Below, piece after piece: positions 100-50,020 of a stretch of 52,616 bases of DNA. The stretch's first letter is position 1. Each line of letters starts with the position of its first letter. The notes below the pieces were generated by a model. The model searched no databases, was not told the origin of the DNA, and saw only the letters and a program-made list of their open reading frames with translations. The position numbers were made by a program, and so were the translations under genes. The stretch is taken from the sequence record PZ379594.1; one strand, written 5' to 3'. Source of the stretch: a phage.

Positions 100-790
100 A
101 TTCGAAACTGTTCTTCAATATAGCATGTTCAATTGCGACAATATTGCTACCATCTCCTATTATAAAGGCCCACCCACAAGCCGGGAGATAACTTTGGCAA
201 GACTGGAACTTTTGGACATGCTTCTTCTTTTCGAAGTAAATTCGATAACAGAGAAGAGTCGGAGCAAAGCCTCTCGTTTTCACGCAGAAGCCGCCCCGAA
301 TTTGAGCAACAAATATTGTGGCAATATTGCTACAGTATGGCATGTAAATATTGCAACAAATCGGCATGTTAGAATGTGGCAGAATTGTTAGAGGACTAAT
401 CACCTCGAAGATACAATCGTCTACCAATCCGGCATGTAGATTTCGTTGCAGTATTTGTGCCAATTTAAGCATGTAATATTGTAACAGGTTCGTGCTAACC
501 CGCATGAATACTGGCTTCCAGCCAAGCGAAGGCTTTATCATCGCATGTAATATTGTGACAATATTGGGATAAAACCCTTTATTTAATTAGTTTTATTATG
601 CTGTACATGGTCGGTTTTCCGTACCTGCTTGCTCCAATCTTAATGTGCCAAATACATCAAGTATGGGAGTAAACCTGTAATTAATGATGCATGTTTAATT
701 GTGACAAAATTCGTCTATTTGGCAGATGAATTGGTTGCAATTAAGCATGTCCATTTATCATTAGTTGCATGTGAATAAGACCAAATCTCT
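100..790. repeat. Array of at least 8 copies of a ~18-20 bp motif (rGCATGT-N2-4-AATATTG-yrACA, containing the palindrome CAATATTG) in the non-coding leader
   Basis: Copies read near 122, 313, 339, 363, 431, 470, 543, 688 and 745; the two listed ORFs here (80..391 +, 98..541 -) lie inside the repeats and are probably not genes. Confidence 0.6.
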
Positions 791-1047
791 GTAAATTCTG
801 CTGAAATTGTGTGACAGATTTTAGAGAGATTATGTCTCCAAGCTAATCATTGTAGTTTTCGGCACTTGTTGTGTCACATATAGTCTGTGCAAAAGGTGTG
901 GTTTGCAGGAGTGCAAGAGCTTCGCAATACTAGGAAGTAACCGAGAGCAGCACACACAGAGATGCTATATAACTCCCTACAACTTTAAGGTGGATTGAGG
1001 TAAGACAAGACCTCCACAATCGTTCTGTAGGGAGTTTTCTTTTAACT

Positions 1048-1308
1048 TTGGAGAATAAAATGGATACTGTAATTAAAGCTGCTTGTTTTAAAGACCTGCC
1101 AGATGGTCAAATCTTCACTGTTCGTTCTGTGAAGTGGATTAAAGTAAATGAGTCAGACAAGTACAATGCTGTAAAGTTCTTTGATTCAAGCAAAGCATGT
1201 ACTTTTAGCGACAATATTGTTGTCAATATTGAAGTCGAATTAATTCCTGATGACGAAGATGTTGAAGTGACTCTTCGTAACACTGCTGGATATAATGAGG
1301 GATTCTAA
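1048..1308 (+). CDS. hypothetical early protein (86 aa)
   Basis: ORF with GGAG-like RBS upstream; first of a tightly packed co-directional string of small ORFs. Confidence 0.5.
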   Translation: MENKMDTVIKAACFKDLPDGQIFTVRSVKWIKVNESDKYNAVKFFDSSKACTFSDNIVVNIEVELIPDDEDVEVTLRNTAGYNEGF

Positions 1309-1551
1309 ATGAATTATGCACTATATCAATACATCAATCGTGATGGTGTTGTTTCTCATGCTTTGGTTAATACTAAGACCAGAGCAATAATGTTGGCAGA
1401 CTTAATGACTGGTTCATCAATTTACGAAAACAAACTGGTGTGGAAGAATGCCGCATATCCTGAATATGTTTGGCAAGCAATCCAGAACGACAAACATCAC
1501 AAAGTTGTGGCAACTGCCGCACATCCAGACTTCCTGAAAGTAAGAGGCTAA
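1309..1551 (+). CDS. hypothetical early protein (80 aa)
   Basis: ATG immediately follows the upstream stop (TAAATG). Confidence 0.5.
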   Translation: MNYALYQYINRDGVVSHALVNTKTRAIMLADLMTGSSIYENKLVWKNAAYPEYVWQAIQNDKHHKVVATAAHPDFLKVRG

Positions 1552-1553
1552 TC

Positions 1554-1742
1554 ATGGACTTCATCGTCTTCTTCAAATTAAATGGTGTAGAGCAAAGGTT
1601 GTACTTCAATTCTTTACTTCGTTTACAGGAGTGGGCGGAGAAGTTTGTTGGTTACGACTTTGATTACATCAATGCATGTACAACTGACGAACATGAAGAA
1701 ATCGTGTTCAGTGGATTAAATCAAATTCTGGAGGCAAGATGA
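1554..1742 (+). CDS. hypothetical early protein (~62 aa)
   Basis: Internal ATG at 1554 with AAGAGG RBS at 1541-1546; the longer listed ORF from 1470 overlaps the previous gene. Confidence 0.45.
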   Translation: MDFIVFFKLNGVEQRLYFNSLLRLQEWAEKFVGYDFDYINACTTDEHEEIVFSGLNQILEAR

Positions 1743-1972
1743 CACAGTTTAAATTAAAGGCTGACTTAATCGAGTTGGCCTCTTACGAAGAGAAAGTAGA
1801 ATTCCTTCAAGAGAGAATTATTGTCAACTATTGTGGTTGGGCTGACACTATTTTAAGTGAGCTTGTTGTTCGTATTAAAGACGAAGTTGGTATTGATATC
1901 ACTTTCCAACAACTTAACGATGATGTTTTGACTGCCAAAGTGCTGGAAAATCTGGCAGCAAACTTCTATTGA
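1739..1972 (+). CDS. hypothetical early protein (77 aa)
   Basis: ATGA start/stop overlap with the upstream gene. Confidence 0.5.
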   Translation: MTQFKLKADLIELASYEEKVEFLQERIIVNYCGWADTILSELVVRIKDEVGIDITFQQLNDDVLTAKVLENLAANFY

Positions 1973-1980
1973 GGTTAACC

Positions 1981-2151
1981 ATGTTCGAAAATGAAGAAGT
2001 GAGTCTTTGGAGTTTCATGCAAGGTGTTAAGCAAGTTGCAGAAAATCCGAAAATCGAATCTGTTGTAATTTCTCGTGAAATGGCCCTATTCTTGGGCCAA
2101 CACATCAATCTTCTTGAAGAACAGCTTGATGCTGCTCGGAGTGGAAAATGA
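1981..2151 (+). CDS. hypothetical early protein (~56 aa)
   Basis: ATG at 1981 preceded by GAGG; the ORF-track start at 1969 is less well placed. Confidence 0.4.
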   Translation: MFENEEVSLWSFMQGVKQVAENPKIESVVISREMALFLGQHINLLEEQLDAARSGK

Positions 2152-2315
2152 AGAAGAAGCTCAAATATATGACCAAAACAGTTACATATATGGCTATGTA
2201 TGGTGCTTCAAAGCGTAAGGCTAAGAAATTAGCAAGAGCTGCAAATCCTCGCATGCCAGCACGTAAGGTGGCTAAAATCGTAAATCTAGTATTCAGGAAT
2301 TGGAGTATAAAATGA
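2148..2315 (+). CDS. possible small basic protein (55 aa, K/R-rich)
   Basis: ATG at 2148 overlaps the upstream stop; translation MKKKLKYMTK...; below the ORF-track length cutoff, so unlisted. Confidence 0.3.
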   Translation: MKKKLKYMTKTVTYMAMYGASKRKAKKLARAANPRMPARKVAKIVNLVFRNWSIK

Positions 2316-2488
2316 ACGACCAGCAATTCAACACATTTCTGCAACAAATGAATCATACTGAATTAATGAATCATTTGGAAGGCAAGACTAAACAGCAACA
2401 ATATGTTCCTCGTGCTCGTGATAAGTATATGCCAACCATTATTGCATGTGTTGGATTCCTGATTGTTCTCTACTTCCTGGTGAAATAA
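2312..2488 (+). CDS. small membrane protein (~58 aa)
   Basis: ATG at 2312 with GGAG 5 nt upstream; hydrophobic C-terminus (IIACVGFLIVLYFLV); the listed start at 2300 is a TTG. Confidence 0.4.
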   Translation: MNDQQFNTFLQQMNHTELMNHLEGKTKQQQYVPRARDKYMPTIIACVGFLIVLYFLVK

Positions 2489-2585
2489 ATGGATATTGTA
2501 AAGAAATTTGTATTCTGTATTCTGATGTTCCCACTTGTGTTCCTTGTTGTTGGCGCATTCATGTACTTTTAATATTGGAGTTATT

Positions 2586-2849
2586 ATGGCTACTAAAACT
2601 GGCATGATGCTCGTACCACGCCGTAATAACTCTTTGGCTGGTTTCGAGCCGTATAAGATTTACCGTGTTATATCTGGAACTGGTGAAGCAAACCTTTCAG
2701 AAGTCGCCTTGAAGATGGGCCGTATGGTCCATTCCGAAATGTCTTGTAACGTAGTTGATGATGAAGGTAAAATCCGATTTGTAACATTGGATTTCTTTCG
2801 CGAATTTAAACTTGAATCAGAATTAGGTGTTTTATACCATGAAATTTAA
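2586..2849 (+). CDS. hypothetical protein (~87 aa)
   Basis: ATG at 2586 preceded by GGAG. Confidence 0.5.
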   Translation: MATKTGMMLVPRRNNSLAGFEPYKIYRVISGTGEANLSEVALKMGRMVHSEMSCNVVDDEGKIRFVTLDFFREFKLESELGVLYHEI

Positions 2850-3066
2850 ATGTGTTGCTTCAACCAAAGACTACGTTCCAGTTGGCTTAATCATTGAAGG
2901 TGAAGCTATTTCGCCTTTGGAATTTAAAGTGACTAAATCTGCTGAAAGCATTTCTCCAGCATTCCGTAAAGGTGCTGTCGTTCCTATGAATGGTGCATTC
3001 TGGACATGGCAGCGTGACCATCGTGCAGAATTTGCAGATATTTGTGAGCAAGGTGCATTACAATGA
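2839..3066 (+). CDS. hypothetical protein, member 1 of a tandem paralog triplet (KFKCV...EYVP...WTW)
   Basis: Shares MKFKCV, EYVP-G-IIEGE and P-NG-WTW blocks with the next two ORFs. Confidence 0.5.
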   Translation: MKFKCVASTKDYVPVGLIIEGEAISPLEFKVTKSAESISPAFRKGAVVPMNGAFWTWQRDHRAEFADICEQGALQ

Positions 3067-3293
3067 CAAAGTTTATATGTATAAAATCCTCTTCTTCATC
3101 CGAATATGCTCCTAAAGTTGGAGATGTGATTGAAGGAGAACTTGTACAAATACAGCGAAAACATGGAATCGACACTCGAATAATTGTTTCGAATGTTGGG
3201 GACAGAGTGGCTGCCAATGGCAGACCCTACTGGAGCATTGGTGAAAGTGTCCCATTAAACGGAAGTATTTGGACTTGGAAAGAGGTTAAATAA
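3063..3293 (+). CDS. hypothetical protein, paralog 2
   Basis: MTKFICIK...EYAPKVGDVIEGE...PLNGSIWTWKE; same family as 2839 and 3360. Confidence 0.5.
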   Translation: MTKFICIKSSSSSEYAPKVGDVIEGELVQIQRKHGIDTRIIVSNVGDRVAANGRPYWSIGESVPLNGSIWTWKEVK

Positions 3294-3359
3294 TTTCCTC
3301 AACCACTTTTGTAGTGAGAGTGGTTGCTGAATATTATTAATTAACTTGGAGTATATGAA

Positions 3360-3845
3360 ATGGCCAAATTCAAATGTGTAAAGGGTTCTGAATACGTTCC
3401 AGAAGGAACAATTCTTGAGGGTGTCCAGAGAAAGGGCAGACTCATACTTACCAAGCCGTCCGAGCTTCTTGGAATTGACGGAAATCCGAGATTCAGTGAA
3501 GGCGATGACCTGCCAATGGAAGGTGTTTTATGGACTTGGGAAGAGATTAAAGAGAAAGTGAAACAACGTACTCGTTTACATCGTGACCCAGCCACAGGTC
3601 GCATGTTGCCAGCATATTTGAAAGTTGGTGATTTGGTTTACACTCGTGACTTTGCTTTTGATATTTGTCCTAGCAAAGTTTATGTTGTTCTTGCCACCAG
3701 CTTGTCTAAGCCTAAAGTGCTGTTTGGTGCACTTGAGCCAATTCAATTAACCGGAACTCAATTTGTCATTAAAGATGAATCTGGTTGCAATCGCACCTTC
3801 AGTCTTGAAGGCGGATTATCTAAGTGGGAGAAAGTGAAGAAATGA
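3360..3845 (+). CDS. hypothetical protein, paralog 3 with C-terminal extension (161 aa)
   Basis: MAKFKCVKGSEYVPEGTILEG...PMEGVLWTWEE; GGAG RBS upstream. Confidence 0.55.
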   Translation: MAKFKCVKGSEYVPEGTILEGVQRKGRLILTKPSELLGIDGNPRFSEGDDLPMEGVLWTWEEIKEKVKQRTRLHRDPATGRMLPAYLKVGDLVYTRDFAFDICPSKVYVVLATSLSKPKVLFGALEPIQLTGTQFVIKDESGCNRTFSLEGGLSKWEKVKK

Positions 3846-4129
3846 ACAAGAATTCAATTTTGCGTTATGTTGGTAAAACAAATTACAACTTTACCAACGG
3901 TAAGAAGTATAAAATCGTCGCAGGTCGTGGTGACGGAGTTCCTCGCAACAACGGTACACTCGGTGCGTATATTCAATCTCCTTTGGGTTTTGTCGTTAAT
4001 GACGATAACCGTAATTTATCTTATCGTACATTCTCCGATAATTGGGAACTTGTGAAAGATTCTGGTGAAGTTAGTTGGTATAAACCTGAATCAAACATGG
4101 ACCCAATTCCTGTATCGAAGGTGATGTGA
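3842..4129 (+). CDS. hypothetical protein (~95 aa)
   Basis: ATG at 3842 overlapping the upstream stop (ATGA). Confidence 0.5.
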   Translation: MNKNSILRYVGKTNYNFTNGKKYKIVAGRGDGVPRNNGTLGAYIQSPLGFVVNDDNRNLSYRTFSDNWELVKDSGEVSWYKPESNMDPIPVSKVM

Positions 4130-4283
4130 GGATTGAATATTAAATACCTAATACTGACACTTACTATTAGCGTTGTTATACTTACGATTGTTATAGGCTT
4201 TGCCAACCTGCTGCTATTACAAGCAGGAATATAAACTGGCGCGTTAAATTAACAAGGAGCATTCATTGAGTGTTCCTGATTAA

Positions 4284-4311
4284 TCTAACATTAGTTGGAT
4301 GTGAGAGAGAC
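4284..4311 (+). promoter_or_regulatory. conserved promoter-like motif, copy 1 (CTAACATTAGTTGGATGTGAGAGAGA)
   Basis: One of five copies of a ~25-bp motif, all in intergenic DNA upstream of + strand genes; about 70 nt upstream of the 4380 ORF. Confidence 0.5.
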
Positions 4312-4379
4312 AAAGCTATTCCGTGGTTAGCAATGTCACTGTAACTTAAACTGTAATTAACTTAATAGAGAAATTAATC

Positions 4380-4757
4380 ATGGCACAATATAACGATTTA
4401 AACACTGGCATCATTGGTGCAAACGGCTACAAGAAGCAAGACACTCATCCTGATGTTCGTGGCCGCATTAACGTAGAGGGTATCTGGTATTGGGTATCTG
4501 GTTGGACCAAAAAGGCTGGTGACAATGAATTTACTTCATTGGCACTGACCATCATGACTCAGGAACAAGTTGATGAAATGATGCGTAAGCGTGAAGAGAA
4601 AGCTAAAGCCAAAGCTCAACCTCAAGCTGCCGCTCAACAGCAACAGCCACGCCAGCAACCTTCTGCACAACAGCAAGCACCTGTTCAGCAACAGACGCAG
4701 AATAGTAACTACAACCCGAACGAGCCGAAAGACTTCGACGACGACATTCCGTTCTAA
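4380..4757 (+). CDS. small protein with E. coli SSB-like C-terminal tail (Q/P-rich linker ending ...NEPKDFDDDIPF)
   Basis: The last residues DFDDDIPF match the partner-binding tip of enterobacterial SSB as I recall it; the N-terminal ~70 aa could be a compact beta-rich (OB-like) domain. Confidence 0.6.
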   Translation: MAQYNDLNTGIIGANGYKKQDTHPDVRGRINVEGIWYWVSGWTKKAGDNEFTSLALTIMTQEQVDEMMRKREEKAKAKAQPQAAAQQQQPRQQPSAQQQAPVQQQTQNSNYNPNEPKDFDDDIPF

Positions 4758-4764
4758 TAGAGAT

Positions 4765-4794
4765 GCCCTATGAAAATCTTATGTTTTATAGGGC
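4765..4794 (+). other. stem-loop after the SSB-tail gene (GCCCTAT...ATAGGGC)
   Basis: 7-bp inverted repeat with a 16-nt loop; no clear U-tract, so possibly an RNA-stability element rather than a terminator. Confidence 0.3.
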
Positions 4795-4878
4795 TACATA
4801 ATTGGGAAATTTCACACGAAAACGATTATGTAACCATTTGGGTGTGTAAGCACTGTTCAGCAATGCGTGAGGAATATC

Positions 4879-5604
4879 ATGGGAGCTAGAATCTTCGAAA
4901 TTCCAGTAAATCTGGTTAAAAATGGTGATACGCTTTGGTATGCAGATAAAGAGTACCCAATCGTAAATGTAGTCCGCCTACGAGACTGCACAACACTTAA
5001 CTACTTATTGGGAAAAGACCGAAGCGGGTACTTTAACTTCGAAAACAGTCGAATTGTTAAACTTATTGACAAGCAAAACGAATTCAATGTTCCTTACACT
5101 GCGGTGTCACCAACAATTGAGTTTCCTAACCAAATAAATCCAGTATTCCTTCCTGTAGAAGAGTTTAATAAACAGGAAGTATCCGATGAAGAAGATGTTC
5201 TCGGAAAAGATGTGGAAGTTGGTGATGTTATTTGGGTAAATAACAATTGGGCAACTGTAACAAACGTGTACAAACATCCACATTCGCCAGCCAATAAAGT
5301 AAATGTAGACTATGGAAACATTAAAGGTTTACAAGTACGGCTGGCATTAACTGGAACATTCTCAAGAAAGGTAAGAGCAGCAATGGAAACATTAAATATT
5401 CAAAATGCAATTGAAGCACAACGTATTCTTCTGCAAAAGCTGGAGCAAATGCTCGACTTAACGCAGCTCCCACCAACAGAAGATGGCAGGATTGCAATTG
5501 GCAACTGCAACATTCGCGTGGACAAGGCAACAGTTGTTAAAGCCGCACGCGATGAGATGAAAGCTGCCGCAAGCAAATCCGCAGAGCTTATCAAGAAACT
5601 GTAA
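4879..5604 (+). CDS. hypothetical protein (~241 aa), C-terminal helical region
   Basis: ATG at 4879 with GAGG upstream; long uninterrupted ORF. Confidence 0.55.
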   Translation: MGARIFEIPVNLVKNGDTLWYADKEYPIVNVVRLRDCTTLNYLLGKDRSGYFNFENSRIVKLIDKQNEFNVPYTAVSPTIEFPNQINPVFLPVEEFNKQEVSDEEDVLGKDVEVGDVIWVNNNWATVTNVYKHPHSPANKVNVDYGNIKGLQVRLALTGTFSRKVRAAMETLNIQNAIEAQRILLQKLEQMLDLTQLPPTEDGRIAIGNCNIRVDKATVVKAARDEMKAAASKSAELIKKL

Positions 5605-5656
5605 TTAACAGAGGTCATTCCACTTCGAGTGGCCTCGATTAATTACTGGAGGAATT

Positions 5657-6016
5657 ATGAAACTTAAGTACATCATTATTTATACTTTAGCATTAATTGT
5701 TTTGGCGTTCTTCAGCTTTGAGTCTAAAGCGTCAACAAAGAACTTCAAATGTGGAGCATATGCTCTTGTAATTGATAATATTGGAGATAGCCAACCTCTG
5801 ATTGCGTCAATAATTCCTGAAGCTGGTGTTTGGATAGAGGTTCCAAGTGATGAACCCAATCCTGCAACAGTTTTGTTTTACAACATTAAAGATAGCAGGT
5901 TTGCTGCACTGTTTATAAATCATGAAGATAAACTTGTACTTCAGATTTTCCGTGACGGAGACTTCCTCAAAGCAAACTACCCTATCTTATCCACCAGCTG
6001 TACGGAGAAGAAATGA
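5657..6016 (+). CDS. putative secreted/periplasmic protein (119 aa) with N-terminal signal peptide
   Basis: N-terminus MKLKYIIIYTLALIVLAFFSFESKAS is signal-peptide-like. Confidence 0.5.
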   Translation: MKLKYIIIYTLALIVLAFFSFESKASTKNFKCGAYALVIDNIGDSQPLIASIIPEAGVWIEVPSDEPNPATVLFYNIKDSRFAALFINHEDKLVLQIFRDGDFLKANYPILSTSCTEKK

Positions 6017-6246
6017 CTTCAACCGAATTTACCATTGATGGGGTTCAATACCTGCTGGAATCTGATTGCGAATATCGCCAGTGGGCAGTAATTCACGACC
6101 GAGTTGTAAAATACTTGGAACGTGTGGGGAAGGAAACTTCTAAATCTATGTTGTTTGAGGCAACAGTTCTTGGGACAACCTCAATCAATAAAGAACTAGT
6201 ATCCTTCAAATTAACCATTCACCCTAGTGGGAATAATTTTCAATGA
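6013..6246 (+). CDS. hypothetical protein (77 aa)
   Basis: Start overlaps the upstream stop; co-directional packing. Confidence 0.45.
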   Translation: MTSTEFTIDGVQYLLESDCEYRQWAVIHDRVVKYLERVGKETSKSMLFEATVLGTTSINKELVSFKLTIHPSGNNFQ

Positions 6247-6931: not shown

Positions 6932-6951
6932 CTTCATCAATGGAGAATCCG

Positions 6952-7986: not shown

Positions 7987-8050
7987 TTCCAGGCTGTTCC
8001 GTCGAAGTGCCAAGCGGGTTTTGTACTCGCATTGGCCTTCGGCTTAATTC

Positions 8051-37890: not shown

Positions 37891-37931
37891 AACATTATTT
37901 GAATATGTATTAATTTCAATAGGTGTATAAC

Positions 37932-42551: not shown

Positions 42552-42559
42552 GGTTAATA

Positions 42560-43204: not shown

Positions 43205-44400
43205 CAAATCGTTTGAATTACCCAGAATATTGGGCGCAGGATGGCGAAGCACTTGACCCCGACTTGGATACGACTGCACCATCCTATATCCCAGACCGAT
43301 ACGAAAATGTCGGCTGGGAAGCTGAAAAGCCTCCCGAACAATGGCAGAACTTCTTAACTCAAATCACTGACGTTAAGATTCGAGATATGTTGGTTGGTGG
43401 GATATTGCAATGGTGTGATACCGTAACATATTCGCTTGGCGCTTTTGCAATAGTTGATGGTAAGATTTATCAGAAGCGGGAAGAGATTCCTGGCAATATA
43501 AGTCCTCCAACCTCCGGAAGTGGTTGGCAAGAGGTTCTTGAGACAAACCTTATTAAGTTTAATGAAAAGGTTCAATATCTCAAGAATGTGTTCAATGCTC
43601 ATATGGCAGAACAGAACCCTCATAAAGATACTGTAGACACAATTATTGATGGGACATATCTTCAAGAATATGTGTACGACAGATTCGCCAGTGACGAACG
43701 AGTTACAACAATCCCATATCACATCTCCAGAACCGGTGCATCTGTCCACAGGGTAACTCCAGAACAGCTTGGAACACTTCCAACATCTGGTGGGACTTTC
43801 ACAGGACCAATAACTTTCACCGAAGAGGCGTATGCTGGTAGTGGTGTTTCACAATATGTACACCGAAATGATTCGACTGGCATATTCGAATTGGTTAATG
43901 GGACTGCTGCAATTGGTGTGGACAGTAGTGGCCATGCGTGGTTCATAAACTCCGCTGGTGCTTTTGAAATCATTACGGAAGCAAACTACAACAAGTTCAA
44001 CATTAAGTATGGAAACCAGTTTGCACTCCCTGTGCCAATGCTTCGTGCTGACTTTCATGAAGACATTAATGACGCAGGGTCTGTTGGTCTGTGGACCGTT
44101 GAGACAACCGCTGCCCCAGAATTTTGGTATGGCGGATTTAACATCTCCAACAATGGGTTGAAGTTCTTTGGACCAACCTTCAACATCCCAACCACAGTGG
44201 TTGTTGTAGTTACTACCGATGAAGTTGATGTAGTTATGCGAACTTCTAATGAAGATTCTTTCAGCTTTCCAGATGGACTTGACCTGAAAGACTACATTGA
44301 TAACAAACTCTTTGCAGATAAGAATGTAATGGCCCTAAGATTCTTTGAGGTATATCCAAGACTTTCTGCTAACCAAATCTCTATGCTTGCGAGACGATAA
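43201..44400 (+). CDS. tail fibre protein 1
   Basis: Fibre-like composition with NPHK/NPHR repeats shared with the next gene. Confidence 0.55.
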   Translation: MTNRLNYPEYWAQDGEALDPDLDTTAPSYIPDRYENVGWEAEKPPEQWQNFLTQITDVKIRDMLVGGILQWCDTVTYSLGAFAIVDGKIYQKREEIPGNISPPTSGSGWQEVLETNLIKFNEKVQYLKNVFNAHMAEQNPHKDTVDTIIDGTYLQEYVYDRFASDERVTTIPYHISRTGASVHRVTPEQLGTLPTSGGTFTGPITFTEEAYAGSGVSQYVHRNDSTGIFELVNGTAAIGVDSSGHAWFINSAGAFEIITEANYNKFNIKYGNQFALPVPMLRADFHEDINDAGSVGLWTVETTAAPEFWYGGFNISNNGLKFFGPTFNIPTTVVVVVTTDEVDVVMRTSNEDSFSFPDGLDLKDYIDNKLFADKNVMALRFFEVYPRLSANQISMLARR

Positions 44401-45791
44401 TGTTAAGACCAAAACTTAATAGAGTCTGGACTTCAAACAATGCCAACCTACGGCGTGACCCTGGGGATGCCAAGTATCTTCAAGGGTGGATTGCAGAAAT
44501 CCCAACCTTCCAGGTTCTTAACTATTTGCAGTATAAGGTTGACACTACTCTCCTAGCACTGGCTGAGCGTGGTGTCTTCGAATGGGGAACCGATGTTCAG
44601 TATGGACTTGGTTCCCTCGTGTGGGATGATGCAACTCGAACTGTTTATGTTGCAACTGTTGGTTCTCCTAGCCGTACTTTACGTCCTAGTGAGAACTTGG
44701 GGCAGTGGGCGGCAAGTGCTATTCAAGTATCTCGTTACGACTACGATGATATTGTTAGCAAGATTTCTGCACACATCGCAGATGTCACTTCCAACCCACA
44801 TCGACTGACAGCCAACATGATTGGTGCATACAACAAAGCACAAATCGATTCGCTGATTTCTCAGTACAATGCCCTTGTTGCGAGTCATGCCAATGACCGA
44901 AACAATCCGCACAAAGTAACTGCTGCCCAGGCAGGTGCTGTTCCTGTCGCTGGTGGTACTTACACCGGACCTGTTACATTCCAGCAAGGTATGCTGTTTG
45001 ATGTAAGCGGAACTTCTAAGTTGTCGTTTGGTCCTGCTGGCCTTTATATGCAGTCAGGTGACGAACGTATTGGGCTGGATGCCAGTGGTGTTCCGGTTGT
45101 TGGCAAGGCATCAACAAACACCAACTCCCGAATTATTACCGATGCAACATTTGCAGAAGTTAAGGCGCGAGAAGAGCCAAAGTATGCAGTACCTGCACCA
45201 AATTTCTGTCAGCACTTGATTGGTGATTTTAATATCAACTCTGGCAAGGGTGCAATCAATGCCTCCGACAGTCTGTATTTTAACAACGATTATGGTGGTG
45301 CTCTGTACAGAACTGCTGGGCAGGATGTTCGAGAAACTCTTTACGAAGGTGCGGGATATGGATTTACAGACTGCACAATCTGTGTGGATGTTCTTTCCAA
45401 CTCGCCTCGTGCGCCGAGCAGTGACGACTCTGTTGGCGTATTCTTCTCCTTAAATGGATTGAATAGCGAGAACATAGACTTCTATTTGCAGAACAAGGGG
45501 CAGCTCAACCTTAACCGAAATGCCTCTGGTGCTAGTGACTGGATTTACTATAATCTCCCTAACCGAGTGAATCGCTGGTATCGTATTGCTGCAACCCTAA
45601 GTACGACCACTGGACTTGAAATATATGTTGATGGTGTTCGTGTGGCTGCTGATGCCTCACAGAATGGTGCGGCTGCATGTGTTGGTAGGTATCCTCAGAT
45701 TCATTTCCAGCCAACATCAAGAAACTATGCTGTTCGCAACTTCCGAGTTTGGGATTTCAAAATGACACCAAACCAAATCTCTACTTTATAA
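44400..45791 (+). CDS. tail fibre protein 2
   Basis: NPHRLTANMIGAYNKAQIDS and NPHKVTAAQAGA repeat motifs typical of fibre shafts. Confidence 0.55.
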   Translation: MLRPKLNRVWTSNNANLRRDPGDAKYLQGWIAEIPTFQVLNYLQYKVDTTLLALAERGVFEWGTDVQYGLGSLVWDDATRTVYVATVGSPSRTLRPSENLGQWAASAIQVSRYDYDDIVSKISAHIADVTSNPHRLTANMIGAYNKAQIDSLISQYNALVASHANDRNNPHKVTAAQAGAVPVAGGTYTGPVTFQQGMLFDVSGTSKLSFGPAGLYMQSGDERIGLDASGVPVVGKASTNTNSRIITDATFAEVKAREEPKYAVPAPNFCQHLIGDFNINSGKGAINASDSLYFNNDYGGALYRTAGQDVRETLYEGAGYGFTDCTICVDVLSNSPRAPSSDDSVGVFFSLNGLNSENIDFYLQNKGQLNLNRNASGASDWIYYNLPNRVNRWYRIAATLSTTTGLEIYVDGVRVAADASQNGAAACVGRYPQIHFQPTSRNYAVRNFRVWDFKMTPNQISTL

Positions 45792-45800
45792 GGTAATGTA

Positions 45801-47153
45801 ATGGCTAAAGGTTGGTCATTTGGCGGCTTAATTGCCGCCTTAAAGTCTGCTGCATTCTTAAATGCAGGTACTGCTCGTGGTGAAGTAATCACTGTTGGAC
45901 AAAAAAATGCCCAGATTCCAACCACAGCATTTGTAACAAACTTTAATTTCAATACATACACATTCACCAATGGTGAGGTTCTATATGTTGAGATGAACTC
46001 TGCTGTAAACGTTCCACCAGAGTTACAGAAGTGGGACCTTGGGAAGTTCAGTGGGGCATATGTAATTATAACTGTGCTTGGAATTTCTGATAACAGCAAT
46101 GCCTCCATCCTCGTAACACATGGTGAGGCAGCACGACCTCCAATCATGTACTACTCTCGCGGACCGTCTGGCAGCAGGTCGTACACAGCGCAACCCCTAA
46201 TGTCTTGCAAGGATGCCGGAAGCGCGAACATTAACCTGTTTACAGGTGCGTCAGATGTTGGTGTTTATTATCAAGAGTCTGATGTTGTTGCTGGCTCTGC
46301 TGGTGGCTATCCAGCAGCACATGCTGGCACACTGGAGGTTTTGCCAACTGCATATGGTGTACAGCAACGCTATACATCCATATATGGTAACGTTTGGGTT
46401 CGTAGTCGTACACTTGATTCCTCGCAGAATTGGGCCGATTGGAGAGAGCTTGCACGAGTAAACCAGCGCGACCGTATTACAGAAGTTGGTGCAATAGAGT
46501 TGTATAACGATATTCCATACATCGACTTCCACTATGCAAACTCTGGTTTAGACTACACTGCACGTATTATTGCAGAAGGATACAATCAGTTAGCTTTACG
46601 TGGAACTGGCACAGACTTCAAGCTGTTCCTGAATGGGCAGTATCGCGGCGTAACTTGGGGCCGTGGTTGGGGTCAAGAAACAGATGGGCACGTCCCTTAT
46701 GGAGTGTATAACTGCGAAGTTGGTCCAGATGCCTGGGTCCCAATCTTGACACTCCAAACTGTAACATCTGGTCAAGGGTATGGAACTCATATTTCGTTTG
46801 GTGCGTACAGCAGAAATAATGATTTCTCAAATCCTGTAATCTCACGACGTGGTGATAATGGTGCTGTACACAACTGGACATTCCAGAATGACGGCAACAT
46901 TGACTACACTGGCAATGGTGGTCCATTCCGTTTTGCACGGGAGAATTGGGTAAACTCTTCTTTCATGAGCGATATTCGCCTGGCCTCCTACCAAGAGACT
47001 ACCACATGGCGTGGCTACGGGTATCGGGATGAATCTGGTTGGGTAATCACTGCTGTAATCAACCAAACTGCTGACGAATTCATCGACTATGTTGGTCGTC
47101 GTAAACTCCAGAAATATATGAATGGAACATGGTATGACAGCTACTCTGTGTAA
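45801..47153 (+). CDS. tail fibre / receptor-binding protein 3
   Basis: Long G/Y/N/T-rich ORF followed by a tail-fibre-assembly-like gene. Confidence 0.5.
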   Translation: MAKGWSFGGLIAALKSAAFLNAGTARGEVITVGQKNAQIPTTAFVTNFNFNTYTFTNGEVLYVEMNSAVNVPPELQKWDLGKFSGAYVIITVLGISDNSNASILVTHGEAARPPIMYYSRGPSGSRSYTAQPLMSCKDAGSANINLFTGASDVGVYYQESDVVAGSAGGYPAAHAGTLEVLPTAYGVQQRYTSIYGNVWVRSRTLDSSQNWADWRELARVNQRDRITEVGAIELYNDIPYIDFHYANSGLDYTARIIAEGYNQLALRGTGTDFKLFLNGQYRGVTWGRGWGQETDGHVPYGVYNCEVGPDAWVPILTLQTVTSGQGYGTHISFGAYSRNNDFSNPVISRRGDNGAVHNWTFQNDGNIDYTGNGGPFRFARENWVNSSFMSDIRLASYQETTTWRGYGYRDESGWVITAVINQTADEFIDYVGRRKLQKYMNGTWYDSYSV

Positions 47154-47664
47154 GTATGAAGGGTTTGTTGAGAATACGAACCTGACTGAAAGCCAACAAG
47201 TGCTCAGGGACGAGCACAAGATTCTATTCGGATGCGATAAGAATGGAACATGTTGGTATAAAATTCGTGAGTCTTTAAAGGACGGTACCGCCAAAGTTGT
47301 ATACGAAAATGATGGGACTATTCGACACATCGACTTTGGTCCTGGTGATACTGTGGCTACACCGCTGGGTGGAAACATAGTTGAGCTGGAGTCGCTGCCA
47401 GAGGGTGTTGAAGAAAACAGACACTTTTGGAAGTTTGATGGTGAGAAGTTTGTCGAGCATAAAGAAAACCGTGTGAAATATAACGAGTTTATGCGTAAGA
47501 AGAAACTTGCACCATTGACGGAAGAAATTAGCATTCTCACTGACATGGTTGAGCTTGGTATGGCCAAGAAGTCTGACAACGAACTGCTTATTAAACTTAA
47601 GAAGAAGCGTATCAAACTGCATCAACTCGACCTAACCGAAACAATCGACTGGAATGAATTCTAA
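47122..47664 (+). CDS. tail fibre assembly protein (Tfa-like)
   Basis: ~180 aa directly after a fibre gene; C-terminal K-rich helical region similar to Tfa chaperones; start uncertain (47122 or 47134). Confidence 0.5.
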   Translation: MEHGMTATLCKYEGFVENTNLTESQQVLRDEHKILFGCDKNGTCWYKIRESLKDGTAKVVYENDGTIRHIDFGPGDTVATPLGGNIVELESLPEGVEENRHFWKFDGEKFVEHKENRVKYNEFMRKKKLAPLTEEISILTDMVELGMAKKSDNELLIKLKKKRIKLHQLDLTETIDWNEF

Positions 47665-48005
47665 TGGATAGACAAACTTTCCAGATGATTTGGGAAGCAA
47701 TGCACCAATACGGCGTTTGGCATGGACTGTTGGCTGGACTGACAGCCTTAATCCGTGGTGCGTATGAGAGTGAGGGTTTAAGCAAAGCGTTGCTGGATGC
47801 GACGCTATGTAGCTTAATCGGGCTGTTTGCATTTCAGGTCGCAGGTACATTTGAAACTTTCACAACTAACGTCACTATGCAGTTGGTGTTAGCCATTGTG
47901 ATTGGTGTCATTGGTGCCAACCTCATTATCACAACTGTCAGGGAAAGTTTCTCTGGCGCAATCAAACAACTTAATCCTTTGACGTGGTTCAAGAAGGCAC
48001 GATGA
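47664..48005 (+). CDS. holin (lambda S-like)
   Basis: IRGAYESEGLSKALLDATLCSLIGLF resembles lambda S [27 protein letters not shown] as recalled; possible dual start M1/M8. Confidence 0.6.
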   Translation: MDRQTFQMIWEAMHQYGVWHGLLAGLTALIRGAYESEGLSKALLDATLCSLIGLFAFQVAGTFETFTTNVTMQLVLAIVIGVIGANLIITTVRESFSGAIKQLNPLTWFKKAR

Positions 48006-48022
48006 AATGGTAAGGAACTCGA

Positions 48023-48577
48023 ATGTTATCATTCAAAGTCCTTGCACTTCTGACAGCTTTAGTTCACATCAACGCCCCAGCTTCGGTTGGGGCAGTGAAT
48101 TCTGCTATTACAGATTTTGCAAGTCACTCTTATTTAAATGGAAGTCTGAAACTATCTTCTTCACAACGCAAAGAGCTAGAATGCTATACTAAAGTTATAT
48201 GGTATGAAGCTCGCGGAGAAGACAAACATGGAAAGATTCTGGTAGCTAATGTCGTCCGTAATAGAACTAAGTTCGGGAAGCCATTCGCTAACACCGTTTG
48301 TGATGTTGTCTATCAACGCAATCAATTTGCATGGACACGAGAAGCAAAGAAGAAGAATGCTCAATGGAAGCATGTAGCAAAGATTAATTATGCCACAGAA
48401 CAACAACAAGTTCTGGACACCATTAATGTTGCAATCTCTTTTGTACTGTTTAATCAACCCTCTGTCACCAAAGCAACCCACTTTTGTACAGCATCGGAGA
48501 AGTGCAACTTCAAGAATGTTAAAGGTTTGGGACGTTATGGTGGCCATAAATTCTATGAGTATCTAGGAAATCTGTAA
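48023..48577 (+). CDS. endolysin, SleB/CwlJ-type cell-wall hydrolase with N-terminal signal sequence
   Basis: Hydrolase_2-type block VIWYEARGE...LVANVVRNR...[12 protein letters not shown]; hydrophobic N-terminus; AAGGAA RBS; adjacent to the holin. Confidence 0.65.
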
Positions 48578-49677
48578 TGGCTTACACTACCTTTTCACAA
48601 ACCAAGAATAACCAACTACTAGAACCAATGTTCTTTGGTCAGAACGTTAACGTTGCTCGATATGACCAACAGAAGTACAGCATCTTCGAGAAGTTAATTG
48701 AGAAGCAGTTATCTTTCTTTTGGCGACCTGAGGAGGTTGATGTTAGCCAGGACCGAATTGATTATGCTGGTCTTCCTGAATGCGAGAAGCACATTTTTAC
48801 CAGCAATTTACGGTACCAAATCCTGCTTGATTCCATTCAGGGACGTGGACCAACTGCAGTTTTGCTACCAATTGTGAGCATTCCTGAGCTTGAAACTTGG
48901 ATTGAAACTTGGTCATTCTCAGAGACAATTCACTCTCGTTCTTACACGCATATTATCCGTAACATTGTTACAAACCCAAGCGTAATTTTCGATGAAATTG
49001 TGGAGAATGAGCACATTAAAATGCGTGCAATTGGCATCTCCCAATATTATGACGAGCTTCAACATCTGACTTCCATGTGGCATTTGCATGAAGATAAAGT
49101 TTCTCTTCGTGAGCTTAAGAAGAAGCTGTATTTATGCCTCATGTCCATCAATGCACTGGAAGCAATTCGCTTTTATGTCAGCTTTGCTTGCTCATTTGCC
49201 TTCGCTGAACGCAAGTTAATGGAGGGAAATGCCAAGATTATTCGCTTAATTGCTCGTGATGAAGCACTCCATTTGACCGGAACTCAACACATGCTGAACC
49301 TTCTTGCAAGCGGTGTTGATGACCCAGAAATGGCCGAAATTGCTAAAGAATGTCGTCAAGAATGCCAAGAAATGTTCGAAAATGTGGCCCAACAAGAGAA
49401 AGATTGGGCTGATTATTTGTTCAAAGATGGCTCAATGATTGGCTTAAACAAGCAAATTCTGTGCGGATATGTGGAATATATCACGAATATTCGTATGCAA
49501 GCAGTTGGATTAGATGCTCCATTCAAAGGTGCTACTAACCCGATTCCTTGGATTAACGCATGGTTGAATTCGGATGCTGTACAAGTTGCTCCACAAGAAA
49601 CGGAGATTAGTTCGTACCTTGTTGGGCAGATTGACTCCGAAGTTGACACCAATGCTCTAGGCGGATTTGAACTATGA
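48577..49677 (+). CDS. nrdB: ribonucleotide reductase class Ia small subunit
   Basis: Long blocks (LLDSIQGR...[32 protein letters not shown]; [18 protein letters not shown]; C-terminal [14 protein letters not shown]) match my recollection of enterobacterial NrdB; no nrdA in the window. Confidence 0.8.
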
Positions 49678-49784
49678 TTGGATACGGTGAAGGCTGACGT
49701 TTGTCAGTTATATGCGAGAAGAGATTCGATGCGTTAGCGTCGTTTCTCTTTGAGCTAGAATAAAAACAAGTAAATTAAATATTT

Positions 49785-50020
49785 ATTTATTCCCAATATT
49801 GCTACAATATTAAGAGTAATATTAGGAATGCGTAAAGTTAAAACCAAATGGTACATGGTCGGTCAGCTGTATCTCGCCGAAATTTGTTCGAACAGTTGTC
49901 TGACTATGAAATAAATTTTTTTTTTTATAATTTTTTATTTTCAATATTGCTACAGAATTAATGAGACTCGAATTGTTACGATATTAACGAGACTAGAATT
50001 GTGGCAATATTATAATTTTT
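49785..50020. repeat. second array of CAATATTGCTACA-type motifs plus an AT-rich tract, upstream of the RNA polymerase gene
   Basis: CCCAATATTGCTACAATATTAAGAGTAATATTAGG, TTTTCAATATTGCTACAGAATTAATGAGACTCGAATTGTTACGATATTAACGAGACTAGAATTGTGGCAATATTATAAT and a T/A run at 49911-49945; same family as the 100-790 array. Confidence 0.55.

What the first reader, a model, noticed from the sequence alone, without database searches (positions are those of the whole stretch)
100..50020. CAATATTG / GCATGT repeat arrays at both ends of the window suggest one split control region
Two non-coding regions (about 100-790 and 49785-50020) carry many copies of a related motif built on the palindrome CAATATTG, often as GCATGT-AATATTG-TGACA. 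A further GCATGT copy sits in the last 40 nt of the window. One array is upstream of the RNA polymerase gene and the other upstream of the early genes. They may be arrays of host-polymerase early promoters or binding sites for a dimeric regulator. The window ends probably do not coincide with the physical genome termini.
Basis: partly seen in the sequence, partly recalled or inferred. Interest (0 to 1): 0.55.

Follow-up and report, generated by a model that had tools for sequence, protein, structure and literature searches.

The report
Repeat arrays are folded leader RNA
Most GCATGT/AATATTG repeats after this phage's RNA-polymerase gene are the paired strands of conserved RNA hairpins in a ~1.1-kb non-coding leader that crosses the edge of the genome's ~2.8-kb terminal repeat; the second array is a different DNA region next to the true left genome end.

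Summary
The window is a whole Chaseviridae (Carltongylesvirus, phiEcoM-GJ1-like) genome, opened at an arbitrary point. The motif clustering is real. CAATATTG occurs 8 times against 1.5 expected. Eleven of the 24 plus-strand GCATGT copies lie in 2.2% of the genome.

The two arrays are not one split region. Array A (52500-52616 joined to 1-1060) is one non-coding stretch cut by the window ends. Array B (49780-50020) lies 2.5 kb upstream, has no GCATGT, and ends about 45 nt before the conserved left genome terminus.

Mapped from eight relatives, the direct terminal repeat runs from about 50060 to about 260. The arrays therefore flank it.

Array A is not enriched in sigma-70 promoter matches. It folds as a plus-strand RNA. 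In 7-11 genomes from at least six genera, about 90% of predicted pairs hold (33-44% in slid controls) and 13-23 pairs per alignment show compensatory changes. GCAUGU copies pair with each other through G·U-closed helices, and AAUAUUG pairs with CAAUAUU. Two ~120-137-nt hairpin modules are paralogues.

The function is inferred: probably an RNase III-processed leader of the early operon. Array B remains a DNA-level promoter, iteron or terminus region. This RNA family is not in Rfam.

The parts
49727..49752 (+). Terminator-like hairpin after the last late gene (nrdB). It marks the start of the non-coding stretch that holds array B.
49779..49813 (.). Array B, first unit: an A/T-rich flank plus the double unit CCCAATATTGCTACAATATTAA. 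A third AATATTA follows at 49818.
   Evidence: 35-nt direct repeat with 49927-49961. Conserved in GJ1, Y2, Faunus, L029, 4HA13 and PM1.
49851..49866 (+). GTACATGGTCGGTCAG box. A second copy lies in array A at 603-616. A related GTCGGTCGAC box occurs in the distant Aeromonas phage ZPAH14.
49905..49941 (.). A/T tract (period-16 repeat).
49946..50012 (+). 26-bp tandem units (2.2 copies here, 3 in Mangalitsa and GJ1). Each ends in rATATT. The last unit holds a sigma-70-like TTAACG-18-TATTAT at 49984-50013, which GJ1's authors annotated as a host promoter.
50027..50049 (+). GC hairpin with a purine-rich loop (GGGCC AGCGGGGAGGGGAA GCCC), conserved upstream of the left terminus in all genera examined.
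50053..50065 (.). Left physical terminus, the start of the direct terminal repeat, inside the palindrome GTCC-TATC-GGAC. Relatives place the cut at 50060, 50062 or 50065.
   Evidence: Mangalitsa and 4HA13 (PhageTerm), Myduc, JL1, Y2 and PM1. The palindrome arms covary: GTCC/GGAC, CTCCC/GGGAG, ATCCC/GGGAT.
50195..50210 (+). Phage-type promoter motif ATTAGTTGGTTGTGAA upstream of the RNA-polymerase gene (50277-52217).
52466..52491 (+). Intrinsic terminator after the RNA-polymerase gene and the small ORF at 52260-52460.
52515..52552 (+). CAATATTG unit followed by the phage-type promoter P1 (ATTAGTTGGATGTGAA, 52537-52552). This is the inferred start of the leader transcript.
   Evidence: Annotated as 'putative phage promoter 1' in GJ1. 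The same motif lies at eight intergenic plus-strand sites.
52578..52616 (+). First leader hairpin. The 5' arm is CAUGUUGAAAU (52584-52594). The 3' arm is AUUUCAGCAUG (52607-52616 plus base 1). It holds two GCAUGU copies, and the window boundary cuts both the stem and the second copy.
1..260 (+). Part of the leader inside the terminal repeat. It holds covarying hairpins at 24-41 and 42-71 (UGUC/GACA here, UGAG/CUCA in other genera), a GCATGT unit at 123-146, and the invariant box CCTATTATAAAGGCCCACCCACAAGCCGGGA at 155-186.
256..265 (.). Right edge of the direct terminal repeat (most often placed at 260, AGTC|GGAG). It shares the pentamer CGGAC/CGGAG with the left terminus. The next ~35 nt are the least conserved part of the region.
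311..335 (+). Double unit AAATATTGTGGCAATATTGCTACA, predicted to pair with 551-562.
   Evidence: inverted repeat I4.
334..471 (+). Hairpin module 1, a rod-like RNA hairpin. GCAUGU at 364 pairs with GCAUGU at 432, and AAAUAUUGCAAC pairs with GUUGCAGUAUUU.
   Evidence: 11 genomes: 33 pairs, 17 with compensatory changes, 91.1% paired against 33-44% in slid controls. Minimum free energy -47.2 kcal/mol, z = -6.3.
505..616 (+). A covarying hairpin (~515-545), the best-conserved unit GCATGTAATATTGTGACAATATTGGGA (543-569), an A/T-rich spacer, and the GTACATGGTCGGT box (603-616).
644..884 (+). Hairpin module 2 (665-783) and its flanking helices. GCAUGU at 689 pairs with GCAUGU at 745. The 3' arm overlaps the phage-type promoter motif P2 (760-775).
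   Evidence: 7 genomes: 40 pairs, 13 with compensatory changes, 90.3% paired against 36-43%. The model built from module 1 matches 665-783 (26.2 bits, E = 0.002). Minimum free energy -44.0 kcal/mol on the plus strand against -20.3 on the minus strand.
971..1036 (+). Two-tiered hairpin with an internal loop just upstream of the first early ORF (1060-1308). Its shape resembles an RNase III site.
1195..1231 (+). One more unit (GCATGTACTTTTAGCGACAATATTGTTGTCAATATTG), lying inside the first early ORF.

Best explanation
The finding covers two different things that flank the phage's ~2.8-kb direct terminal repeat (about 50060 through the window junction to about 260).

(1) Array A is a continuous ~1.1-kb non-coding stretch (52500-52616 joined to 1-1060). 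It lies downstream of a terminator and a phage-type promoter (P1, 52537). It most likely is transcribed on the plus strand as a highly structured leader of the early operon.
- The repeated motifs are largely helix strands. GCAUGU is self-complementary only as RNA, because its closing pairs are G·U, and copies pair with each other. AAUAUUG pairs with CAAUAUU.
- The result is a series of hairpins. Two of them (334-471 and 665-783) are paralogous modules of ~120-137 nt.
- The structure and its strand are shown here by covariation and folding energy. Transcription from P1 is inferred.
- The proposed mechanism is inferred by analogy with the T7 early leader: host RNase III cuts these long double-stranded rods and the hairpin at 971-1036, which sets the 5' ends, stability and timing of the early mRNAs.
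- GCAUGU never varies and no perfect palindrome replaces it. Some unidentified sequence-specific reader of the hexamer must therefore exist as well.

(2) Array B (49779-50020) is a separate DNA-level region just outside the left end of the terminal repeat. It contains CAATATTG double units, a GGTCGGTC box, 26-bp tandem units that each resemble a weak sigma-70 promoter, an A/T tract and a hairpin. It ends about 45 nt before the conserved terminus. It most likely holds the host-polymerase promoter for the RNA-polymerase gene, signals for making the genome end, or both.
For: Identity and permutation of the window.

Terminal repeat mapped from relatives:
- Mangalitsa, 4HA13 and Myduc by PhageTerm.
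- JL1, Y2, PM1 and ZPAH14 carry the repeat at both record ends.
- The edge sequences are conserved.
- The ICTV profile describes the family as non-permuted with ~3-kb repeats.

Array A is non-coding: 1-nt indels in relatives break both long ORFs there.

No excess of sigma-70-like sites.

RNA structure:
- Alignment A3: 59 pairs, 23 compensatory against 12.3 +/- 2.4 in shuffles (0 of 500) and 6-10 in slid controls; 88.5% paired against 29-53%.
- Alignment A4: 17 of 33 pairs compensatory; covariation score 0.437 against 0.189.
- Alignment A6: 13 of 40 pairs compensatory.
- Hairpins in the part of the leader inside the terminal repeat.

Strand:
- 91% of cells pair on the plus strand against 78% on the minus strand, and 14% of cells are G·U.
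- Module 2 folds at -44.0 kcal/mol (z = -6.2) on the plus strand against -20.3 (z = -1.65) on the minus strand.
- GCATGT is 82 to 2 in favour of the plus strand across eight genomes.

Paralogous modules.

Array B. Its plus-strand fold is unremarkable (z = -1.3) and the RNA model does not match it.
Against: - There are no transcript data, so P1 and the extent of the RNA are inferred.
- The structures were predicted on the same small alignments (7-11 related sequences) on which the pairs were counted, which inflates the scores somewhat.
- The GCAUGU:GCAUGU helices never vary, so they carry no covariation evidence of their own.
- Across eight genomes there are 82 GCATGT copies and no GCATGC or ACATGT. 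Pairing alone therefore cannot explain the hexamer.
- AATATT double units also lie on DNA upstream of P1, in array B and inside an ORF, which an RNA role does not explain.
- RNase III cleavage is only an analogy.
- The role of array B is unresolved.
Confidence: 0.6

Rival explanations
1. The motifs act on DNA as operators. CAATATTG double units, spaced one helical turn apart, would bind a dimeric or cooperative regulator (phage or host) that controls P1, the RNA-polymerase promoter region and the early operon. RNA pairing would then be a by-product of palindromic sites.
For: - CAATATTG is a true palindrome and is strongly clustered.
- AATATT units are 11-12 bp apart at 312/323, 549/560 and 49795/49806/49818.
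- Units lie directly upstream of P1 in every genus examined, on DNA behind a terminator.
- Units occur in array B, which shows no sign of RNA structure.
- One copy lies inside an ORF.
Against: - Compensatory changes at non-palindromic helix positions show selection for pairing itself.
- GCATGT has an absolute strand bias, which a symmetric dimer site does not predict.
- No early ORF matches a DNA-binding family.
- This reading could still hold for the CAATATTG units alone, alongside the RNA explanation.
Confidence: 0.3
2. The arrays are tandem early promoters for host sigma-70 RNA polymerase, as in the A1-A3 cluster of T7.
For: - Their positions match: upstream of the RNA-polymerase gene and of the early genes.
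- GJ1's authors annotated a sigma-70 promoter in array B.
- Each 26-bp unit of array B reads TTAAyG-16 bp-rATATT, and the last gives TTAACG-18-TATTAT.
- A TATAAT-like element about 45 nt before the left terminus recurs in most genera.
- Some GCATGT units read TGT-TAGAAT, which looks like an extended -10 element.
Against: - The consensus scan shows no enrichment: 6 against 5.0 in array A and 5 against 7.5 in 49600-52616.
- In the GCATGT units the key A at position 2 of the putative -10 hexamer is present in only about half.
- No -35 element lies at a fixed distance.
- Array A lies downstream of a phage-type promoter and folds as RNA.
- The array B promoter lies outside the terminal repeat, so it cannot serve the left copy of the polymerase gene on virion DNA.
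Confidence: 0.12
3. The arrays are cis signals of the concatemer junction. They would be bound by the terminase, or used as pause sites by the phage RNA polymerase, to cut at 50060 and 260 and to duplicate the terminal repeat. The model is T7, where paused RNA polymerase at the junction recruits the packaging proteins.
For: - Both arrays lie just outside the two edges of the terminal repeat. The nearest motif is about 50 nt from each edge.
- This layout holds in five Cleopatravirinae genera. A different co-oriented repeat (GTATGAGAC) lies around the right edge in the distant phage ZPAH14.
- A GGTCGGTC box resembling the edge sequence GTCGGAC occurs in both arrays.
- GCATGT is strictly oriented, like the T7 class II pause signal (the signal itself is from my own knowledge).
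- The role of paused T7 RNA polymerase at the concatemer junction is described in PMC3276506.
Against: - Nothing here links the motifs to the terminase.
- Most of array A is explained by RNA helices.
- GCATGT copies lie both inside and outside the repeat.
- The sequence right at the right edge is the least conserved part of the region.
Confidence: 0.2
4. Array A, or array B, is the replication origin. As at the T7 primary origin, it would consist of a phage promoter, a primer transcript, an A/T-rich unwinding region and a primase site. In array B it would be iterons next to an A/T tract.
For: - The order of elements fits: promoter motifs (P1, P2), an A/T-rich stretch at 571-600, then TGGTC inside the GGTCGGT box. 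That TGGTC is a preferred T7 primase site is from my own knowledge.
- Array B has 26-bp tandem units whose copy number varies between close relatives, next to a 37-nt A/T tract.
Against: This rests on resemblance alone. No initiator protein was identified. An origin does not need conserved RNA helices over ~1 kb.
Confidence: 0.1

Closest known systems
Left end of T7/T3 (terminal repeat, promoters A1-A3 and phiOL, RNase III site R0.3, then the first early gene)
   Same: The order of elements matches: terminal repeat, a long non-coding leader with promoters, a processing-type hairpin, then small early genes. Both phages have a single-subunit RNA polymerase. The T3/T7 layout is described in PMC3276506.
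   Different: - Here the repeat is ~2.8 kb and contains the polymerase gene itself.
- The leader is ~1.1 kb and starts inside the repeat.
- The leader is built from repeated hairpin modules with an invariant GCAUGU.
- No cluster of strong sigma-70 promoters is detectable.
Short-repeat arrays SRL and SRR that flank the T7 terminal repetition (Dunn and Studier 1983; recalled from memory, not checked here)
   Same: Arrays of a short repeated sequence lie immediately outside both edges of the terminal repeat. Their function has never been settled.
   Different: The T7 arrays use the same short heptamer on both sides and are ~170 bp long. Here the two sides differ, since GCATGT is on one side only. 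One side is demonstrably a structured RNA.
Long direct terminal repeats of Chaseviridae (ICTV profile; phages Y2, PM1, PYps23T, 4HA13, Mangalitsa, Myduc)
   Same: The window has the same gene order and the same edge sequences as relatives with reported repeats of 2.3-3.4 kb.
   Different: The window record carries only one copy of the repeat and is opened inside it. Its own ends were not determined here.
Non-coding RNAs built from repeated hairpins with a short conserved motif (for example CsrB/CsrC, which sequester a protein; recalled from memory)
   Same: There are many copies (8-13) of a short invariant motif within one structured transcript. This is compatible with titrating or recruiting a sequence-specific reader.
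   Different: - Here the motif lies in helices rather than in loops.
- No binding protein is known.
- The RNA continues into coding genes.
- It matches no Rfam family.
T7 class II pause/termination signal at the concatemer junction
   Same: It is a short, strictly oriented signal near the terminal repeat in a phage with a T7-type polymerase. Pausing there is coupled to packaging.
   Different: The sequence differs (ATCTGTT in T7, from memory). T7 has one copy, whereas this phage has about 11 GCATGT copies. Pausing was not tested here.

Membership tests
Sigma-70 promoter array | -35 and -10 hexamers 16-18 bp apart, more frequent than chance, oriented towards the genes | tested here: not met
   Array A has 6 sites against 5.0 +/- 2.7 expected, and only 3 are on the plus strand. 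The stretch 49600-52616 has 5 against 7.5 +/- 2.7. Array B holds one 9/12 match, at 49984-50013.
Single-subunit (T7-type) RNA polymerase promoters | A conserved motif of about 20 nt, on the coding strand, in intergenic gaps spread along the genome | tested here: not met
   The GCATGT/AATATTG unit is confined to the arrays. The motif that is spread along the genome is (tctgaaac)ATTAGTTGGATGTGAA, at 760, 4290, 8198, 10181, 18367, 50195 and 52537.
Operator array for a dimeric regulator | Palindromic sites that work in either orientation, with a cognate DNA-binding protein encoded nearby | tested here: inconclusive
   CAATATTG is palindromic and clustered. GCATGT is on the plus strand 82 to 2. Ten early ORFs match no DNA-binding family.
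Conserved structured RNA | Base pairs kept through compensatory changes, above shuffled and slid controls | tested here: met
   A3: 23 pairs against 12.3 +/- 2.4 in shuffles (0 of 500) and 6-10 in slid controls. A4: 17 of 33 pairs. A6: 13 of 40 pairs. About 90% of cells pair, against 29-53% in slid controls.
Conserved structured RNA | Strand specificity (G·U pairs, asymmetric folding energy) | tested here: met
   14% of cells are G·U. Pairing is 91% on the plus strand and 78% on the minus strand. Module 2 folds at -44.0 against -20.3 kcal/mol.
Conserved structured RNA | The region is actually transcribed | not testable with these tools
   Only context is available: a terminator at 52466-52491, the promoter motif P1 at 52537, and all genes on the plus strand.
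RNase III processing site | About two turns of double-stranded RNA, often with an internal loop, that RNase III cleaves | not testable with these tools
   The predicted rods of 30-45 bp and the two-tiered hairpin at 971-1036 have the right shape. Cleavage was not tested.
Any Rfam family | A covariance-model match | tested here: not met
   There is no match at E <= 1 in 1-1300. The only match in 49600-52616 is a chance microRNA hit at E = 0.18.
Chaseviridae long direct terminal repeat | A repeat of ~2.3-3.4 kb holding the RNA-polymerase gene, with conserved edge sequences | tested here: met
   Both edge sequences are present in the window, at 50053-50065 and 256-265, and match those of seven Cleopatravirinae relatives. 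The window's own virion ends were not measured.
Replication-origin iterons or terminase recognition sites | Binding by an initiator or the small terminase; needed in cis for replication or packaging | not testable with these tools
   Only the layout is seen: 26-bp tandem units, an A/T tract and closeness to the terminus.

The most novel reading that the evidence does not exclude
The leader is not merely a processed 5' untranslated region. It would be a working RNA device whose 8-13 invariant GCAUGU helices are read by a specific factor. Three versions are possible:
- It recruits or titrates a host or phage protein.
- It couples transcription by the phage polymerase to cutting and duplication of the terminal repeat, since P1 on the right-hand repeat copy would run off the genome end at 260.
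- Its weak A-U and G·U helices act as a thermosensor behind the temperature-dependent infection reported for this genus.
Probability: 0.12. Interest if true: 0.8.

Novelty: new variant of a known kind. Interest (0 to 1): 0.55.

Why it matters
Chaseviruses combine a contractile-tailed virion with a T7-type RNA polymerase. The ICTV profile says their promoters have not been identified, and nothing has been published on their non-coding regions.

This analysis gives three things:
- A concrete map of the control region: terminator, phage-type promoter, a ~1.1-kb structured leader, then the early genes.
- The physical genome ends placed on this sequence.
- An undescribed RNA family, conserved across at least six genera, with an unusual design. 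Direct repeats of a hexamer that is self-complementary only as RNA serve as pairing partners.

It also shows that the obvious reading of such arrays, as promoters or operators, can be wrong. The helices give precise targets for mutagenesis, RNA-seq and RNase III experiments.

Tried and rejected
- Sigma-70 promoter scan of both arrays: no enrichment.
- Treating GCATGT...TGACA as a second class of phage promoter, including a 12-of-18 resemblance of AATATTGTGACAATATTG to the SP6 promoter noticed by eye. I dropped this because the unit occurs only in the arrays and the ATTAGTTG motif fits the promoter role.
- Coding potential of ORFs 80-391 (+) and 98-541 (-): rejected, because 1-nt indels in relatives break the frames.
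- Rfam and tRNA searches: nothing found.
- Search for a DNA-binding protein among ten early ORFs with Pfam and PHROGs: nothing found.
- A symmetric inverted arrangement of the two arrays around the repeat: only the motif plus an A/T flank align (score 40 against a null of 20.6 +/- 2.6). This was not developed further.
- A metagenome scan for more copies of module 1: 120 pattern matches, only one genuine (L056). The viral-contig scan returned the same phages. The family appears confined to known chaseviruses.
- The model of module 1 finds nothing in array B or in the distant phage ZPAH14.
- The GJ1 (2008) and Y2 (2011) papers are not held in the library. The ST32 paper has no matches for the promoter, repeat or termini terms I searched.

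Full report
**What the window is.** The first 1.1 kb and the last 3 kb of the window match some 80 phage records of the family Chaseviridae. Most belong to the genus Carltongylesvirus (phiEcoM-GJ1, ST32, flopper, Mangalitsa, the PYps phages) at 87-97% identity. All long ORFs are on the plus strand. In relatives the last base of the window is followed directly by the first: one 5,554-nt alignment to flopper runs from window 48001 through the junction to 880 at 94% identity. The first and last 4 kb of the window share no similarity. The window is therefore a complete genome with one copy of its terminal repeat, opened at an arbitrary point.

- CAATATTG occurs 8 times against 1.5 expected, and no shuffle out of 100 reaches 8. 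All copies lie at 139-566, 1212-1231, 49794, 49942 and 52515.
- GCATGT is not enriched in the genome as a whole (38 against 39.6), but its distribution is extreme. On the circularised sequence, 11 of the 24 plus-strand copies lie in the 1,179 nt from 52500 to 1062 (P = 1.4e-12). Only 1 of the 15 minus-strand copies lies there.
- The exact composite GCATGTAATATTG occurs only at 469 and 543. The general unit is GCATGT, then an A/T-rich heptamer ending in TTG, then yrrCA (logo from 51 units in five genera).
- The repeat tools find a 34-nt family at 113, 354, 533 and 679, and a 26-bp tandem repeat at 49946-50012.
- Array B contains no GCATGT.
- Near the window end there are two GCATGT copies. One is at 52578. 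The other spans the boundary (52613-52616 plus 1-2).

**Where the physical ends are.** The ICTV profile describes chaseviruses as linear, terminally redundant and not permuted, with repeats of about 3 kb.
- PhageTerm repeats are annotated for Mangalitsa (1-3234), 4HA13 (1-3120) and Myduc (1-3202).
- The records of JL1, Y2, PM1 and the distant Aeromonas phage ZPAH14 carry exact repeats of 2,995, 2,608, 2,665 and 3,373 bp at both ends.
- The left terminus always falls in the same conserved sequence: an A/T tract, a GC hairpin with a purine-rich loop, then CCAAC-GTCC-TATC-GGAC-TTAAATACGG. The cut is placed after TAT, after TATCG or after CGGAC. In the window this is 50060-50065.
- The arms of this small palindrome covary between genera: GTCC/GGAC, CTCCC/GGGAG and ATCCC/GGGAT.
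- The right edge of the repeat falls at AGTC|GGAC-like sequences, which is window 256-265 and most often 260. The Faunus record starts exactly there.
- Both edges share the pentamer CGGAC/CGGAG, which explains the 4-5-nt disagreement between records.
- By homology, the window's repeat is about 2.8 kb. It holds the RNA-polymerase gene, a small ORF, a terminator, a phage-type promoter and the first ~330 nt of array A.
- Array B ends about 45 nt before the left edge. The main part of array A begins about 50 nt after the right edge. The arrays therefore flank the repeat and are not two halves of one region.

**Promoters.**
- A consensus scan finds no excess of sigma-70-like sites in either region: 6 against 5.0, and 5 against 7.5.
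- The motif that GJ1's authors annotated as a phage promoter extends to (tctgaaac)ATTAGTTGGATGTGAA. It occurs on the plus strand in intergenic gaps at 760, 4290, 8198, 10181, 18367, 50195 and 52537. This is the pattern expected of promoters for the phage polymerase.
- The GCATGT unit does not behave this way.
- The copy at 52537 (P1) follows a strong intrinsic terminator (52466-52491) and precedes array A. The simplest reading is that array A is transcribed from P1. This step is inferred.

**Array A is non-coding and deeply conserved.** An alignment of eight genomes from P1 to the first early gene shows blocks that are nearly invariant even in another genus. It also shows 1-nt indels that break both long ORFs in the region. 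Parts of the region can be found by plain DNA search in phages of Erwinia, Pectobacterium, Pantoea and Proteus.

**Array A folds as an RNA.** I predicted consensus structures on MAFFT alignments of sequences from at least six genera (Carltongylesvirus, Sabourvirus, Myducvirus, Faunusvirus, Loessnervirus and Suwonvirus, plus three uncultivated relatives found through the polymerase gene).
- Window 296-640, 7 sequences: 59 pairs, 23 with compensatory changes against 12.3 +/- 2.4 in shuffles (0 of 500) and 6-10 when partners are slid by 1-3 columns; 88.5% of cells paired against 29-53%.
- The rod-like hairpin at 334-471, 11 sequences: 33 pairs, 17 compensatory; 91.1% paired against 33-44%; covariation score 0.437 against 0.189.
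- Window 644-884, 7 sequences: 40 pairs, 13 compensatory; 90.3% paired against 36-43%.
- The part inside the terminal repeat also holds hairpins with compensatory changes, for example UGUC/GACA in this genus and UGAG/CUCA in the others at 50-65.

The structure belongs to the plus strand.
- 14% of paired cells are G·U.
- The mirrored structure on the minus strand keeps only 78% of pairs.
- Module 2 folds at -44.0 kcal/mol (z = -6.2) on the plus strand, against -20.3 (z = -1.65) on the minus strand.

**What the motifs are in this structure.**
- GCAUGU pairs with another GCAUGU: G·U, C-G, A-U, U-A, G-C, U·G. This is possible only in RNA and only on this strand.
- Three such pairs are predicted: the 52578 region with 52613, 364 with 432, and 689 with 745.
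- The A/T-rich tails pair as AAUAUUG with CAAUAUU, and the 'TGACA' part pairs with covarying partners downstream. In the helix next to it the pair types are GC in 6 sequences, AU in 4 and CG in 1.
- A covariance model built from 334-471 finds a second, weaker copy at 665-783 (26.2 bits, E = 0.002), and at the same place in three relatives. It finds nothing in array B.
- The array is therefore a series of hairpin modules, two of them paralogous.
- The 3' arm of module 2 overlaps the promoter motif at 760.
- A two-tiered hairpin at 971-1036 precedes the first ORF.

**Limits of the RNA reading.**
- The GCAUGU helices never vary, so they add no covariation evidence.
- In eight genomes there are 82 GCATGT copies on the plus strand, and none of the perfect palindromes GCATGC or ACATGT. 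Pairing alone would allow those, so something must read the hexamer itself.
- AATATT double units also lie immediately upstream of P1 in all genera, in array B, and inside the first ORF. A DNA-level role for that palindrome remains possible.
- No transcript data exist.

**How it most likely works.** By analogy with the T3/T7 left end, which has a terminal repeat, promoters, the RNase III site R0.3 and then the first gene, I propose the following. The phage polymerase transcribes the leader from P1, and from the motif at 760. The long double-stranded rods and the final hairpin are cut by host RNase III. This sets the 5' ends, stability and timing of the early mRNAs. This step is an inference. 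On virion DNA, the P1 copy in the right-hand repeat would run off the end of the molecule at 260.

**Array B.** Across genera it keeps the same order of parts:
- a CAATATTG-N3-CAATATT double unit;
- a GGTCGGTC box;
- lineage-specific tandem units (26 bp here, with 2 copies in the window and 3 in Mangalitsa and GJ1);
- an A/T tract;
- a -10-like TATAAT or TATTAT;
- the GC hairpin;
- the terminus.

Each 26-bp unit reads like a weak promoter, and the last gives TTAACG-18-TATTAT. Its plus-strand fold is unremarkable (z = -1.3). I regard it as DNA-level. It probably holds the host promoter for the polymerase gene, signals for making the genome end, or both. This is unresolved.

**Comparison with what is known.**
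- No Rfam family matches.
- The papers held in the library describe the repeats of these phages but not these arrays.
- The nearest analogues are the T7 early leader, the short-repeat arrays that flank the T7 terminal repetition (from memory), and the polymerase pause signal at the T7 concatemer junction.
- The distant phage ZPAH14 has a different co-oriented repeat (GTATGAGAC) around its right repeat edge. Oriented repeat arrays at this position may therefore be a family trait with lineage-specific sequence.

**Verdict.** The clustering is real and the guess about the window ends is right. The arrays are two different things flanking the terminal repeat, and the larger one is best explained as a conserved structured leader RNA rather than as promoters or operators. 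Confidence in the structure is good. Confidence in the function is modest.

Noticed in passing
window 50053-50065 and 256-265: Both edges of the terminal repeat share the pentamer CGGAC/CGGAG. The left terminus lies in a small palindrome (GTCC-TATC-GGAC) whose arms covary between genera (CTCCC/GGGAG, ATCCC/GGGAT). The right edge reads GTC-G-GAC-like. This suggests a common nuclease recognition element.
   Followed up: partly
window 49851-49866 and 603-616; L021 (ZPAH14): A box (GTACAT)GGTCGGTC(A/G)AC occurs once in each array, in the same orientation, in all Cleopatravirinae examined. The 33%-identity Aeromonas phage ZPAH14 has GTCGGTCGAC. The box resembles the repeat-edge sequence GTCGGAC and contains TGGTC.
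   Followed up: partly
window 155-186: CCTATTAT(A/C)AAGGCCCACCCACAAGCCGGGA is nearly invariant across genera, about 75-100 nt before the right repeat edge. It contains a TATTAT -10-like element. On the minus strand it forms a terminator-like hairpin followed by a T run. In Proteus phage Myduc the ~218 nt ending at the repeat edge, including this box, are tandemly duplicated.
   Followed up: partly
L005/L006 (PYps23T) against window 50195 and 52537: The 2,339-bp repeat reported experimentally for PYps23T starts and ends inside two copies of the phage promoter motif (ATTAGTTGGA|CGTGAA). Its edges differ from those of seven other family members. This could be a real variant or a product of recombination or PCR between promoter copies.
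   Followed up: partly
window 760, 4290, 8057, 8198, 10181, 18367, 50195, 52537: The candidate phage-polymerase promoter extends upstream to tctgaaacATTAGTTGGATGTGAA. No good copy lies after 18.4 kb, so the ~31-kb structural and lysis block may be one transcription unit.
   Followed up: partly
window 971-1036: A two-tiered hairpin with an 8x8 internal loop lies just before the first early ORF. It is conserved with a few compensatory changes and has the shape of a T7-type RNase III site.
   Followed up: partly
L020 (ZPAH14) ~3050-3480: The distant Aeromonas chasevirus has its own co-oriented repeat, GTATGAGAC (5-6 copies), on both sides of its right repeat edge. A G-rich box (GGGGTGGGGGAGGG) lies ~15 nt before its left terminus.
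   Followed up: partly
window 49946-50012; L013, L003, L025: The copy number of the 26-bp unit differs between close relatives: about 2 in the window and L025, and 3 in Mangalitsa and GJ1. Flopper's record annotates these as repeat_region features.
   Followed up: no
window 1195-1231: A full unit (GCATGT...CGACAATATTGTTGTCAATATTG) lies inside the first early ORF (1060-1308).
   Followed up: no
record PP952070.1: A record named 'Staphylococcus phage Pel53' (host Staphylococcus hyicus) is 88-90% identical to this E. coli phage genus across the region. This suggests a mis-assigned host or a contaminant.
   Followed up: no
window 50067-50283 against L001 (Mangalitsa), L007 (JL1): Mangalitsa and JL1 annotate a longer RNA polymerase (2,115 nt against 1,941 nt here). 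An extra ~150 nt at the 5' end is absent from the window.
   Followed up: no
window 334-471 and 665-783: The leader helices are rich in A-U and G·U pairs. Members of this genus are reported to infect in a temperature-dependent way (phage Tiny). A link between the two is pure speculation.
   Followed up: no
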